Shown: positions 36,878-39,252 of the stretch, in pieces | How positions within the stretch are numbered: position 1 is the first letter of the stretch | Layout of the letters: the number at the start of each line of letters is the position of its first letter | Assembly: GCF_044647545.1 (NCBI RefSeq) | Contig: NZ_CP172818.1 | Strand: one strand, 5' to 3' | Source of the DNA: Escherichia coli | GTDB taxonomy: Bacteria > Pseudomonadota > Gammaproteobacteria > Enterobacterales > Enterobacteriaceae | Length of the DNA stretch: 64,000 nucleotides | Made by a program: the position numbers and the translations under genes | Notes under the pieces: model-generated | What the model saw: only the letters and a program-made list of their open reading frames with translations | Database searches by the model: none | What the model was told of the DNA's origin: nothing

Positions 36878-37468
36878 ATGTTACAAAACCCAATTCATCT
36901 GCGTCTGGAGCGCCTGGAAAGCTGGCAGCACGTCACTTTCATGGCTTGCTTATGCGAACGCATGTACCCCAATTACGCCATGTTCTGCCAGCAAACCGGT
37001 TTTGGTGATGGGCAGATTTACCGCCGCATTCTCGATCTCATCTGGGAAACGCTGACCGTCAAAGACGCAAAAGTAAATTTCGACAGCCAACTGGAGAAAT
37101 TTGAAGAAGCGATTCCTTCAGCCGACGATTTCGATCTGTACGGCGTTTATCCGGCAATCGATGCCTGCGTGGCGTTAAGTGAACTGGTCCATTCGCGTTT
37201 GAGTGGTGAAACGCTCGAACACGCGGTGGAAGTGAGTAAGACCTCCATCACGACCGTTGCGATGCTGGAAATGACTCAGGCTGGTCGCGAAATGAGCGAT
37301 GAAGAGCTCAAAGAAAACCCAGCTGTAGAGCAAGAATGGGACATTCAGTGGGAAATATTCCGACTTTTAGCTGAGTGCGAAGAACGCGATATCGAGCTGA
37401 TAAAAGGCCTTAGGGCAGACCTGCGTGAGGCGGGTGAGAGCAATATTGGTATAATTTTTCAGCAATAA
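36878..37468 (+). CDS. yjaG: DUF416 protein YjaG, 196 aa
   Basis: ORF track. Confidence 0.9.
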   Translation: MLQNPIHLRLERLESWQHVTFMACLCERMYPNYAMFCQQTGFGDGQIYRRILDLIWETLTVKDAKVNFDSQLEKFEEAIPSADDFDLYGVYPAIDACVALSELVHSRLSGETLEHAVEVSKTSITTVAMLEMTQAGREMSDEELKENPAVEQEWDIQWEIFRLLAECEERDIELIKGLRADLREAGESNIGIIFQQ

Positions 37469-37654
37469 GACCAGAAAACGTGATTTAACGCCTGATTTGT
37501 CGTACCTGGAGTCTTCCCTTTCGCCCCCCGTCTGGTCTACATTTGGGGGGCGAAAAAAAGTGGCTATCGGTGCGTGTATGCAGGAGAGTGCTATTCTGGC
37601 ATTTCCGTCGCACTCGATGCTTAGCAAGCGATAAACACATTGTAAGGATAACTT

Positions 37655-37927
37655 ATGAACAAGACTCAACTGATTGATGTAATTGCAGAGAAAGCAGAAC
37701 TGTCCAAAACCCAGGCTAAAGCTGCTCTGGAGTCCACTCTGGCTGCAATTACTGAGTCTCTGAAAGAAGGCGATGCTGTACAACTGGTTGGTTTCGGTAC
37801 CTTCAAAGTGAACCACCGCGCTGAGCGTACTGGCCGCAACCCGCAGACCGGTAAAGAAATCAAAATTGCCGCAGCTAACGTACCGGCATTTGTTTCTGGC
37901 AAGGCACTGAAAGACGCAGTTAAGTAA
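37655..37927 (+). CDS. hupA: DNA-binding protein HU-alpha, 90 aa
   Basis: ORF track. Confidence 0.97.
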
Positions 37928-37933
37928 GATTGC

Positions 37934-38635
37934 GTGGCAGTGAACAGTTTTAACGAAGGGGTGGTTTCACCCCTTTTGTCTTTCTGGCGTCGATCATTGA
38001 TGCTGGCAGGCGCTCTGTTTCTCACTGCCTGTAGTCACAACTCTTCACTTCCTCCCTTTACCGCCAGTGGATTTGCTGAAGACCAGGGCGCGGTACGCAT
38101 CTGGCGAAAAGACAGCGGCGATAATGTGCATCTGCTTGCCGTGTTTAGCCCGTGGCGCAGTGGCGATACCACCACGCGAGAGTATCGCTGGCAGGGCGAT
38201 AACCTCACGCTCATCAATATCAATGTTTACAGCAAACCGCCGGTGAATATTCGCGCGCGTTTTGACGATCGCGGCGATCTGAGCTTTATGCAACGTGAAT
38301 CCGATGGGGAAAAGCAGCAGCTTTCTAACGACCAAATCGATTTATACCGTTATCGTGCTGATCAGATCCGCCAGATTAGCGATGCCTTACGTCAGGGGAG
38401 AGTCGTGCTGCGCCAGGGGCGCTGGCATGCGATGGAACAGACCGTGACCACCTGCGAAGGGCAAACCATTAAACCTGATTTAGATTCGCAGGCGATAGCG
38501 CATATCGAGCGCCGCCAGAGCCGCTCTTCTGTTGATGTCAGCGTGGCATGGCTGGAAGCGCCCGAAGGTTCGCAATTACTGTTGGTGGCAAACTCTGATT
38601 TCTGTCGCTGGCAACCCAACGAGAAAACGTTCTGA
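37934..38635 (+). CDS. yjaH: DUF1481 putative lipoprotein YjaH (start uncertain; ORF track GTG 37934, alternative TTG 37976 or ATG 38000)
   Basis: ORF track 37934..38635; N-terminus has signal-peptide-like RRSLMLAGALFLTAC with lipobox LTAC. Confidence 0.8.
   Translation: MAVNSFNEGVVSPLLSFWRRSLMLAGALFLTACSHNSSLPPFTASGFAEDQGAVRIWRKDSGDNVHLLAVFSPWRSGDTTTREYRWQGDNLTLININVYSKPPVNIRARFDDRGDLSFMQRESDGEKQQLSNDQIDLYRYRADQIRQISDALRQGRVVLRQGRWHAMEQTVTTCEGQTIKPDLDSQAIAHIERRQSRSSVDVSVAWLEAPEGSQLLLVANSDFCRWQPNEKTF
37956..37984 (+). terminator. hupA intrinsic terminator
   Basis: AAGGGGTG-GTTT-CACCCCTT followed by TTGTCTTTC. Confidence 0.8.
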
Positions 38636-38636
38636 T

Positions 38637-39062
38637 TTACCAGTGGCCCATACCCATATGACCGCCACCACCGCAGCCGCCGTAGCCCATGCCCATTCCG
38701 GCTCCGCGCGGAATACCCGCTTCAGCCATCGCAATATCTCGTTTCACCCGTAACTCATCTAACGACTGACGCAAATTCTCCATCTCTTTGGCGACCGCGT
38801 TAATTTTGCTGCTATCCGGTGGGTTCGCGGCTAACAGGGCATTGTATTCATAACGCTTCGTCACCAGTTGCTGTTGCAGTGCGCTGCTTTGAGCGTAAAA
38901 GTCATTATGGATTTTCTGCCACGCTGTCTGTTGTTCGCTGGTCAAAGGCGCGGCATTTTGCTGCCACATACCATGTCCGCCGTGAGCAAATGCCGATGTC
39001 GATCCCATCGCCATTGCTGAAAGCGCCATCATTACCAGGGCAATTTTCGTGTTCCGTTTCAT
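38637..39062 (-). CDS. zraP: Zinc-resistance-associated periplasmic protein ZraP, 141 aa
   Basis: ORF track 38637..39203; start set to ATG 39062 (MKRNTKIALVMMALSAMAMGSTSAFA signal peptide); Gly/His/Met-rich C-terminus. Confidence 0.92.
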   Translation of the reverse strand: MKRNTKIALVMMALSAMAMGSTSAFAHGGHGMWQQNAAPLTSEQQTAWQKIHNDFYAQSSALQQQLVTKRYEYNALLAANPPDSSKINAVAKEMENLRQSLDELRVKRDIAMAEAGIPRGAGMGMGYGGCGGGGHMGMGHW

Positions 39063-39096
39063 GGTTAATCCTCCAGTGGTTGTCTTACTTCGGGTA

Positions 39097-39113
39097 TTGC
39101 ATCTTCCGTGCCA
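39097..39113 (-). promoter_or_regulatory. sigma54 (-24/-12) promoter of zraP
   Basis: Reverse complement TGGCACGGAAGATGCAA matches TGGCAC-N5-TTGCA. Confidence 0.75.
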
Positions 39114-39155
39114 ACGGCGAAACGCTGATATGACGGGTAATCTGGCATGATAAAC

Positions 39156-39201
39156 GAGTAAAAATGACTCGCCTGCTGCGGGTAGCGAGTCATTTTTACT
39201 C
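39156..39201. promoter_or_regulatory. ZraR enhancer sites: two 17-bp inverted repeats in the zraP-zraS divergent region
   Basis: GAGTAAAAATGACTCGC (39156-39172) and its exact reverse complement GCGAGTCATTTTTACTC (39185-39201). Confidence 0.75.
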
Positions 39202-39252
39202 ATTGAAACTTAAGCCTTTGTGTTACAGCGCAGGGTAAGCGCTGATAAAAGA

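What the first reader, a model, noticed from the sequence alone, without database searches (positions are those of the whole stretch)
37934..38040. yjaH start is ambiguous: longest ORF begins inside the hupA terminator; N-terminus encodes a lipoprotein signal
The longest ORF (GTG 37934) starts 7 nt after the hupA stop and reads through the hupA intrinsic terminator hairpin (37956-37975) and its T-tract. In-frame alternative starts TTG 37976 (giving MSFWRRSLMLAGALFLTAC...) or ATG 38000 (MLAGALFLTAC...) lie just after the hairpin. The RR-containing n-region, hydrophobic core and lipobox LTAC indicate YjaH is a lipoprotein; the TTG start gives the most canonical signal peptide.
Basis: partly seen in the sequence, partly recalled or inferred. 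Interest (0 to 1): 0.3.

Follow-up and report, generated by a model that had tools for sequence, protein, structure and literature searches.

The report
yjaH start overlaps the hupA terminator
The lipoprotein gene yjaH really does begin inside the transcription terminator of the neighbouring hupA gene, so databases disagree on its start codon. The mature protein is the same whichever start is used, so this is mainly an annotation and gene-expression curiosity.

Summary
The yjaH ORF (37934-38635) runs through the hupA intrinsic terminator. The hairpin lies at 37955-37976, and published Term-seq places the RNA 3' end at 37979. RefSeq starts yjaH at GTG 37940, not 37934. All four N-terminal versions (233, 231, 219 and 211 aa) exist in public databases.

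The lipoprotein call is supported but not new. The lipobox Cys is invariant across DUF1481. STEPdb already lists YjaH as an outer-membrane lipoprotein, and published proteomics finds it in outer-membrane fractions.

Comparative data favour a start upstream of the hairpin:
- 77 of 77 distinct Enterobacteriaceae loci keep a GTG or ATG 5-13 nt after the hupA stop.
- 8 of 77 have lost the TTG and have no other usable start.
- Several distant clades can only start upstream.
- The frame stays open through the terminator in 18 of 19 clade representatives.

ATG 38000 is rejected: only 10 residues precede the Cys, and the Met is not conserved.

The likely mechanism is inferred, not shown. Transcription reaches yjaH by terminator read-through. 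Translation begins without a Shine-Dalgarno site, by reinitiation coupled to hupA. Signal peptidase II then removes the whole ambiguous N-terminus.

The parts
37655..37927 (+). hupA (HU-alpha) coding sequence, stop TAA at 37925-37927
   Evidence: ORF list; RefSeq annotation. hupA lies directly upstream of the DUF1481 gene in every locus that has enough upstream sequence.
37934..37936 (+). GTG, start of the longest ORF (233 aa)
   Evidence: It is GTG or ATG in most Enterobacteriaceae and GTA in 5 loci. It is replaced by ATG in L009, L053, L084 and L096. There is no Shine-Dalgarno match: anti-SD duplex -1.4 kcal/mol.
37940..37942 (+). GTG, the RefSeq-annotated yjaH start (231 aa)
   Evidence: It is GCG or GTA in 5 loci that keep the first GTG. 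All 77 distinct loci keep at least one of the two upstream start codons.
37937..37954 (+). Block GCAGTGAACAGTTTTAAC, conserved at nucleotide level, between the hupA stop and the hairpin
   Evidence: Majority-base fraction is 0.95/0.91/0.94 for codon phases 1/2/3, so there is no wobble pattern. '(C)AGTGAA' recurs in distant loci, including ones where it cannot encode YjaH. No Rfam match.
37955..37976 (+). hupA intrinsic terminator hairpin (9 bp, loop GTTT), inside the yjaH ORF
   Evidence: Covariation: 99.2% of cells paired, CG<->UA and GC<->UA/UG exchanges, 0 of 500 shuffles as good.
37974..37984 (+). Interrupted U-tract TTTTGTCTTTC. The published RNA 3' end is at 37979.
   Evidence: Adams et al. 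2021 (PMC7815308), supplementary files 1 and 3: 3' end at MG1655 4200605(+), 102,752 reads, Rho score 0.74 (not Rho-dependent), intrinsic-terminator score 5.76. Coordinates mapped through.
37976..37978 (+). TTG, candidate start giving an 18-residue signal peptide (MSFWRRSLMLAGALFLTA|C)
   Evidence: The only start that passes all three classical lipoprotein-signal rules. Present in 69 of 77 distinct Enterobacteriaceae loci and absent in 8. Opening energy 23 kcal/mol; the SD-like AAGGGGU is 12 nt away and lies inside the stem.
38000..38002 (+). ATG, candidate start (211 aa); rejected
   Evidence: The Cys would be at position 11, with no K/R before it. The Met is not conserved. Gene callers nevertheless chose it on at least 1000 contigs.
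38021..38032 (+). Lipobox L-T-A-C; Cys codon at 38030-38032, with Ser at +2
   Evidence: The Cys is invariant in 31 diverse family members. The lipobox spectrum is LTAC, LSAC, LAGC, LSGC and similar.
38030..38635 (+). Mature YjaH, from the lipid-modified Cys to the stop at 38633-38635. The DUF1481 domain spans 38063-38620.
   Evidence: Pfam PF07356, E = 9.4e-73, residues 44-229. AlphaFold2 model with mean pLDDT 91.8. Detected with 4 peptides in outer-membrane fractions.

Best explanation
yjaH encodes a DUF1481 outer-membrane lipoprotein whose 5' end is fused onto the 3' untranslated region of hupA.

Shown: the hupA intrinsic terminator (hairpin 37955-37976, RNA 3' end at 37979) lies inside the yjaH reading frame. 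Most transcripts stop there.

Inferred: only read-through transcripts carry yjaH. Translation most likely starts at the GTG codons 6-12 nt after the hupA UAA (37940, or 37934). These have no Shine-Dalgarno sequence, so ribosomes finishing hupA would have to reinitiate there. They would then read through the hairpin. TTG 37976 may act as a secondary start.

Inferred from the invariant lipobox: the choice of start does not alter the product. Signal peptidase II cuts before Cys 38030, so every start gives the same mature lipoprotein. Ser at +2 predicts sorting to the outer membrane.
For: Terminator:
- Canonical hairpin plus U-tract.
- Covariation across 57 sequences.
- Term-seq 3' end with 102,752 reads, Rho-independent.

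Lipoprotein:
- Invariant lipobox Cys, plus two further invariant Cys.
- Lipobox pattern in 30 of 31 family members.
- STEPdb class OMLP and a matching outer-membrane gradient profile.

Upstream start:
- 77 of 77 distinct Enterobacteriaceae loci have a GTG or ATG 5-13 nt after the hupA stop.
- 8 of 77 (Kluyvera and the Citrobacter amalonaticus group) have TCG in place of TTG and no other in-frame start at least 13 codons before the Cys.
- In distant relatives only an upstream start works. L090 gives MKKIIR...; L094 has TTA in the U-tract; the L101/L103/L104/L105/L120 clade has CAG there and starts MKRIS....
- The first GTG is replaced by ATG in four lineages.
- From the upstream start through the hairpin the yjaH frame has no stop in 18 of 18 representatives of the short-spacing arrangement. 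The other two frames are stop-free in only 8 of 36 cases.
- Indels downstream of 37934 are all multiples of 3, including +3 in the hairpin loop of L072. The spacer upstream of 37934 varies by 1-2 nt.

Coupling:
- None of the candidate yjaH starts has a usable SD: -1.4 and -1.5 kcal/mol for the upstream GTGs, against -5.9 for the hupA ATG used as a control.
- The upstream GTGs cost 10.5 kcal/mol to open, against 23 for TTG 37976.
Against: - No direct initiation-site or N-terminal data for yjaH were found in the supplements held.
- Region 37934-37975 shows no codon-type wobble. Conservation by codon phase is 0.95/0.91/0.94 upstream of the hairpin and 0.905/0.93/0.91 within it. The normal coding pattern begins only after 37976. 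Constraint there is therefore at the RNA or DNA level and does not by itself prove translation.
- The conserved 'AGTGAA' also occurs in loci where the GTG opens only a 3-codon ORF (L106/L107/L116). Conservation of the GTG is thus not specific evidence that it starts yjaH.
- TTG 37976 gives the only textbook signal peptide. Its G is invariant in 75 Enterobacteriaceae although it interrupts the U-tract. It is replaced by ATG in L102.
- A 30-residue signal with an 18-residue n-region containing Glu is unusually long. This last point is from general knowledge and was not tested.
Confidence: 0.55

Rival explanations
1. Translation starts at TTG 37976, in the U-tract just after the hairpin, giving an 18-residue signal peptide. 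The open frame upstream is untranslated hupA 3' UTR.
For: - It is the only start with a K/R in the first 7 residues and the Cys at position 19.
- Coding-type third-position variation begins only after 37976.
- An in-frame TTG lies 16-19 codons before the Cys in many distant loci (L084, L087-L089, L091, L096-L100) and is ATG in L102.
- The G at 37978 is invariant although it weakens the U-tract.
- The SD-like AAGGGGU scores -7.6 kcal/mol.
Against: - TTG is TCG in 8 of 77 distinct Enterobacteriaceae loci and in 2 metagenomic loci, with no replacement start. It is CAG in the L101 clade and TTA in L093 and L094.
- The start codon abuts a stable hairpin. Opening energy is 23 kcal/mol, and the SD-like run is 12 nt away and base-paired.
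- This reading does not explain why the frame stays open back to a start codon next to the hupA stop in 18 of 18 representatives, when the other frames are open in only 8 of 36.
Confidence: 0.25
2. Both sites are used. Coupled ribosomes start at the upstream GTGs, and some de novo initiation occurs at TTG 37976. The two precursors are processed to the same mature protein.
For: Both codon classes are retained together in 69 of 77 distinct Enterobacteriaceae loci and in several distant clades. Because both give the same mature product, there is no selection against dual use.
Against: There are no direct data. The TTG can be lost in at least two lineages. The hairpin makes independent initiation at the TTG energetically costly.
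Confidence: 0.15
3. Translation starts at ATG 38000 (or TTG 37997), as many automatic gene callers annotate it.
For: ATG is the strongest start codon. The 211-aa version is present on at least 1000 contigs in public data.
Against: Only 10-11 residues would precede the Cys, with no positive charge, which fails the 15-35 position rule. The Met is replaced by Thr, Ala, Leu, Trp and others in most genera. There is no SD.
Confidence: 0.03
4. The RR motif marks a twin-arginine (Tat) signal, which would explain a long N-terminal region.
For: The sequence W-R-R-S-L-M-L loosely resembles the Tat consensus, and Tat signals tend to be long. The second point is from general knowledge.
Against: The second Arg is replaced by H, Q, G, S, K, M or C in many Enterobacteriaceae genera, and distant members lack RR. 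No Tat-signal model matched in Pfam or NCBIfam.
Confidence: 0.02

Closest known systems
Sec/SPase II-dependent outer-membrane lipoproteins of E. coli (STEPdb class OMLP)
   Same: Hydrophobic core, lipobox L-T-A-C, invariant Cys and a non-Asp residue at +2. YjaH is listed as OMLP and fractionates with the outer membrane.
   Different: With the annotated start the signal is 30 residues long. Its first 12-14 codons are the upstream gene's terminator hairpin. There is no K/R in the first 7 residues.
ORF-internal RNA 3' ends catalogued by Term-seq (Adams et al. 2021, PMC7815308)
   Same: This site is in that catalogue, as a 3' end 'internal' to yjaH at +39, with an intrinsic-terminator score of 5.76.
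   Different: It is not a premature stop that regulates yjaH alone. It is the primary terminator of the highly expressed upstream gene hupA. Its position and reading phase inside the downstream ORF are kept across distant relatives.
Translationally coupled gene pairs (termination-reinitiation at a start codon a few nucleotides from the upstream stop)
   Same: A start codon lies 0-13 nt after the hupA stop in all loci of the short-spacing arrangement, with no Shine-Dalgarno sequence.
   Different: Coupled pairs normally sit inside one operon with no terminator between them (general knowledge). Here a strong terminator lies 15-21 nt downstream of the reinitiation codon. Coupling itself was not tested.
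Leader-peptide transcription attenuators (trp and his type)
   Same: A ribosome translating across a terminator hairpin could prevent its formation and allow read-through. This is an inference.
   Different: No alternative antiterminator structure or regulatory codons are evident. The translated ORF is the downstream gene itself rather than a separate leader peptide.

Membership tests
Bacterial lipoprotein (Lgt/LspA/Lnt substrate) | Lipobox [LVI][ASTVI][GAS]-C preceded by an uncharged hydrophobic stretch | tested here: met
   L-T-A-C with six preceding non-DERK residues. The Cys is invariant in 31 diverse members, and 30 of 31 have a lipobox-like motif.
Bacterial lipoprotein (Lgt/LspA/Lnt substrate) | Cys at position 15-35 of the precursor | tested here: met
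   Position 33, 31, 24 or 19 for starts 37934, 37940, 37961 and 37976. Not met for 37997 (position 12) or 38000 (position 11).
Bacterial lipoprotein (Lgt/LspA/Lnt substrate) | At least one Lys/Arg in the first seven residues | tested here: inconclusive
   Met only with TTG 37976. With the annotated GTG 37940 the two Arg are at positions 17-18. The outcome depends on the unresolved start.
Bacterial lipoprotein (Lgt/LspA/Lnt substrate) | Membrane association in cells | tested here: met
   Published data: 4 peptides, a gradient profile rising into the dense outer-membrane fractions, and a call that matches STEPdb 'OMLP' (PMC7055658 supplement).
Bacterial lipoprotein (Lgt/LspA/Lnt substrate) | Lipid modification of the Cys and globomycin-sensitive processing | not testable with these tools
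   Needs palmitate labelling, globomycin treatment or mass spectrometry of the N-terminus.
Pfam DUF1481 (PF07356) | Profile match above the gathering threshold | tested here: met
   244.4 bits against a cut-off of 25, E = 9.4e-73, full profile 1-186.
Intrinsic (Rho-independent) terminator | G+C-rich hairpin followed by a U-tract | tested here: met
   9-bp stem with 5 G-C pairs, followed by TGTCTTTCTG; part of a -28.3 kcal/mol local fold.
Intrinsic (Rho-independent) terminator | Structure conserved with compensatory changes | tested here: met
   99.2% of cells paired; 2 pairs changed on both sides; 0 of 500 shuffles reach the observed covariation; slid controls give 51-80% paired.
Intrinsic (Rho-independent) terminator | RNA 3' end in the U-tract, insensitive to Rho inhibition | tested here: met
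   Published Term-seq 3' end at 4200605 (window 37979), 102,752 reads, Rho score 0.74 ('No').
Translational coupling by termination-reinitiation | Downstream start within a few nucleotides of the upstream stop, without its own Shine-Dalgarno site | tested here: met
   GTG or ATG 5-13 nt after the hupA stop in 77 of 77 distinct loci. Anti-SD duplex only -1.4 and -1.5 kcal/mol.
Translational coupling by termination-reinitiation | Downstream translation depends on upstream translation | not testable with these tools
   Needs hupA nonsense or stop-relocation mutants with a YjaH reporter.
Twin-arginine (Tat) signal peptide | Near-invariant RR in an S/T-R-R-x-F-L-K-like motif | tested here: not met
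   The second Arg is replaced in many genera (WRH, WRQ, WRG, WRS, WRK, WRM). No Tat model matched.

The most novel reading that the evidence does not exclude
The hupA terminator has been kept inside the cleaved-off signal-peptide region of the downstream lipoprotein gene across Enterobacterales and more distant relatives, as a working expression device. Under this reading, ribosomes that finish hupA reinitiate a few nucleotides later and melt the terminator hairpin while translating through it. Read-through transcription and translation of yjaH are therefore both tied to hupA translation. This would hold YjaH at a small fixed fraction of HU-alpha without a promoter or ribosome-binding site of its own.
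Probability: 0.2. Interest if true: 0.55.

Novelty: new member of a known kind. Interest (0 to 1): 0.3.

Why it matters
Practically, yjaH is annotated with four different N-termini in public databases. The very common 211-aa version lacks a functional signal peptide, so localisation predictors run on it would miss an outer-membrane lipoprotein.

Biologically, the locus is a clean, conserved case of a strong intrinsic terminator sitting inside a downstream reading frame, next to one of the most highly expressed genes of the cell. If coupling to hupA is confirmed, it would show how a minor envelope protein can be expressed at a fixed low ratio to a nucleoid protein with no promoter or ribosome-binding site of its own.

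The stakes for the protein itself are low, because the disputed residues are removed during maturation.

Tried and rejected
- Direct start-site data. I searched the supplements held for Ribo-RET (bioRxiv 10.1101/520783, no files held; PMC7115971, not held), TRAINSPOTTER, INRI-seq, Salmonella riboproteogenomics, REPARATION and a ribosome-signature paper. None had a yjaH entry.
- Rfam scan of 37400-38700: no match.
- Promoter scan of 37400-38800: no site found, which is uninformative.
- PDB sequence search: nothing significant.
- NCBIfam: no family.
- ProQ literature on hupA concerns the 5' UTR, not this 3' region.
- GTG 37961, inside the hairpin, is rejected as a start. It is GCG in most genera and has no K/R in the first 7 residues.
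- A stem pairing the hupA stop region with CAGUUUUA appears in the single-sequence fold. It is rejected because the 5' arm varies without compensation while the 3' arm is invariant.
- Bridging upstream ORFs in the long-spacing loci. L085, L107 and L116 have one ending in an ATGA overlap with the yjaH start. This is not conserved in the close relative L106, so it is not claimed.

Full report
**What is in the window**

The region is the E. coli yjaG-hupA-yjaH-zraP locus. It is 100% identical to sequenced E. coli genomes and present in 5,420 of 5,426 complete genomes. hupA occupies 37655-37927. The longest downstream ORF runs from GTG 37934 to 38635. RefSeq, in both K-12 MG1655 and PGAP-annotated strains, starts yjaH two codons later, at GTG 37940, giving 231 aa. 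In-frame start codons before the lipobox Cys (38030-38032) are GTG 37934, GTG 37940, GTG 37961, TTG 37976, TTG 37997 and ATG 38000.

**The terminator is real and lies inside the ORF**

- A 9-bp G+C-rich hairpin at 37955-37976 is followed by TGTCTTTCTG.
- The consensus scan alone is no better than chance for a 1.4-kb region. In an alignment of 57 non-identical sequences, however, the stem is paired in 99.2% of cells. Two pairs show compensatory exchanges, no shuffle reaches the observed covariation, and slid controls give 51-80% pairing.
- Adams et al. 2021 (PMC7815308, supplementary files 1 and 3) report a Term-seq 3' end at MG1655 4200605(+). It has 102,752 reads in LB at OD 0.4, and 27,872 and 14,561 reads in two other conditions. 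It is classed 'internal' to yjaH at +39, is not Rho-dependent (score 0.74), and has an intrinsic-terminator score of 5.76.
- Using the MG1655 annotation, that position is window 37979. hupA transcripts therefore end ...CCCCUUUUGU, one base past TTG 37976.

**YjaH is a lipoprotein, and this is already on record**

- The protein matches Pfam DUF1481 over its whole profile (E = 9.4e-73).
- A search of 1.84 billion representative proteins found 116 relatives. In an alignment of 31 diverse full-length members (22-82% identity to the first sequence), the lipobox Cys is invariant, as are two further Cys.
- 30 of 31 carry a lipobox-like motif such as LTAC, LSAC, LAGC or LSGC.
- The residue at +2 is Ser. 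By the E. coli +2 rule (general knowledge), this predicts sorting to the outer membrane.
- In the supplement of Sueki et al. 2020 (PMC7055658), YjaH (P32681) was quantified from 4 peptides. It carries the STEPdb class 'OMLP', and its sucrose-gradient profile rises into the dense outer-membrane fractions, scored as a 'match'.
- The RR is not a Tat motif. The second Arg is replaced in many genera, and no Tat model matched.

**Which start codon? Evidence from the sequence alone**

- Only TTG 37976 gives a precursor that passes all three classical rules: pattern, Cys at position 15-35, and a K/R in the first seven residues.
- The upstream GTGs fail only the K/R rule.
- TTG 37997 and ATG 38000 fail the length rule, with the Cys at position 12 or 11 and no charge.
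- No candidate has a usable Shine-Dalgarno site. The upstream GTGs score -1.4 and -1.5 kcal/mol. TTG 37976 has AAGGGGU (-7.6), but it is 12 nt away and inside the stem, and opening its initiation region costs 23 kcal/mol. The upstream GTGs cost 10.5, and the hupA ATG used as a control costs 5.6.

**Which start codon? Comparative evidence**

I fetched 80 species-level Enterobacteriaceae loci, 11 distant loci found through their proteins, and 27 metagenomic loci. The metagenomic loci were selected by motifs well downstream of the N-terminus (central and C-terminal), so they are unbiased with respect to the N-terminus. hupA lies directly upstream wherever there is enough upstream sequence to tell.

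In 77 distinct Enterobacteriaceae sequences:
- The distance from the hupA stop to the Cys is 101-108 nt.
- All 77 keep a GTG or ATG 5-13 nt after the hupA stop.
- 69 keep the TTG 17-19 codons before the Cys.
- 8 (five Kluyvera and three of the Citrobacter amalonaticus group) have TCG there and no other in-frame start at least 13 codons before the Cys.

In those lineages, with an otherwise intact gene, only an upstream start is available.

Where one upstream GTG is lost, the other is kept. It is GTA in Salmonella diarizonae and arizonae and in Leclercia, and GCG in four other loci. In two species the first GTG is ATG. Indels downstream of 37934 are all multiples of three, including +3 in the hairpin loop of Yokenella. 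The spacer before 37934 varies by 1-2 nt.

Among distant relatives two arrangements exist.

- *Short spacing* (stop to Cys 87-117 nt). The ORF runs from a start codon 0-13 nt after the hupA stop through the terminator. In L090 the only positively charged N-terminus (MKKIIR) is upstream of the hairpin. L094 has TTA in the U-tract and no other usable start. The clade L101/L103/L104/L105/L120 has CAG there and must start at the upstream GTG (MKRIS...). Its sisters have TTG (L097, L099, L100) or ATG (L102) at that codon. Across 18 representatives the yjaH frame has no stop between the upstream start and the hairpin end. The other two frames are stop-free in only 8 of 36 cases. One short-spacing locus, L095, is an exception: it has an in-frame stop and an ATG just after the terminator.
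- *Long spacing* (177-184 nt; L085/L086 and L106/L107/L116). An ATG with a canonical 16-20-residue signal lies well downstream of the terminator.

**Counter-evidence**

- In 75 non-Escherichia Enterobacteriaceae, 37934-37975 shows no third-position wobble. Majority-base fractions by codon phase are 0.95/0.91/0.94 upstream of the hairpin and 0.905/0.93/0.91 within it. Ordinary coding periodicity appears after 37976 (0.79/0.915/0.735) and in the mature part (0.89/0.95/0.61). The extension is thus constrained as nucleic acid, by the terminator and the block GCAGTGAACAGTTTTAAC.
- A related 'AGTGAA' block persists even in long-spacing loci, where the GTG opens only a 3-codon ORF. Conservation of the GTG is therefore not by itself proof of a yjaH start.
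- The G of TTG 37976 is invariant in Enterobacteriaceae although it interrupts the U-tract.
- I found no initiation-profiling or N-terminal data for yjaH.

**Conclusion and mechanism**

The best-supported reading (about 0.55 for the whole statement) has four steps.
1. Most hupA transcripts end at 37979. This is shown.
2. yjaH is carried only by read-through transcripts. This is inferred; no promoter was detected, but the scan is weak.
3. Translation begins at GTG 37940 or 37934 by reinitiation of ribosomes terminating at the hupA UAA, and passes through the hairpin. This is inferred from conservation, the open frame, the lack of an SD and the energetics.
4. Signal peptidase II removes everything before Cys 38030. 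This is inferred from the invariant lipobox and is consistent with the outer-membrane localisation.

TTG 37976 as the sole start has about 0.25, dual use about 0.15, and ATG 38000 about 0.03. Because the mature protein is identical in every case, the ambiguity concerns expression control and annotation, not the product.

**Comparison with what is known, and novelty**

- The lipoprotein status is already in STEPdb.
- The 3' end is already in a Term-seq table, as an ORF-internal end.
- All four N-terminal versions are in public databases: 231 and 211 aa on at least 1000 contigs each, 233 aa on 55 and 219 aa on 2.
- Full-text searches for 'yjaH' and 'DUF1481' returned no paper whose title or abstract concerns this gene or family. 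The two E. coli mentions I opened were a list entry and a computational pathway prediction. I therefore found no description of the conserved placement and phase of the hupA terminator inside the downstream signal-peptide region, or of a start codon always next to the hupA stop.
- This makes the locus a further, well-conserved example of known phenomena: ORF-internal terminators, translational coupling and lipoprotein signals. It is not a new kind of system.
- The structure model is confident (pLDDT 91.8) but has no informative neighbour among solved structures. The function of mature YjaH therefore remains open. A 2009 computational study placed it near LPS-core pathways (PMC2672614).

Noticed in passing
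window 37937-37954: The block GCAGTGAACAGTTTTAAC, between the hupA stop and the terminator hairpin, is almost invariant at nucleotide level across 75 Enterobacteriaceae, third codon positions included. '(C)AGTGAA' recurs in distant loci where it cannot encode YjaH: a 3-codon ORF (GTG AAG GTT TGA) in L106/L107/L116, and a 36-codon upstream ORF in L085. It could be a hupA 3'-UTR element or a reinitiation site. There is no Rfam match and it remains unexplained.
   Followed up: partly
L085 1394-1504; L107 and L116 609-692: In long-spacing relatives, a small ORF ends in an ATGA overlap with the yjaH ATG. In L085 it starts at the conserved GTG and runs through the terminator. In L107 and L116 it starts at a TTG in the U-tract. 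The close relative L106 lacks it, so it may be fortuitous.
   Followed up: partly
window 37655-38635: In E. coli the hupA and yjaH ORFs are in the same reading frame, separated only by UAA GAU UGC. Read-through of the stop codon would fuse HU-alpha to the YjaH precursor. Species with 104-nt spacing are not in frame, so this is probably incidental.
   Followed up: partly
window 38633-38639: The yjaH stop (38633-38635) and the convergent zraP stop (38637-38639) are 1 nt apart, with no terminator-like site found between them. The pair is listed as a convergent excludon in PMC12288877.
   Followed up: no
window 38637-39203 (- strand): The longest zraP ORF is 188 aa, from ATG 39203. RefSeq annotates 141 aa (38637-39062). 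PGAP adds a separate 42-aa hypothetical protein at about 39065-39193 in strain FDAARGOS_497. This is another start-site and annotation inconsistency.
   Followed up: no
[not shown]
   Followed up: partly
L004-L122 (all related loci): The gene order nfi-yjaG-hupA-DUF1481 holds from E. coli down to relatives with about 30% YjaH identity. The DUF1481 gene was found directly downstream of hupA wherever enough upstream sequence was available.
   Followed up: partly
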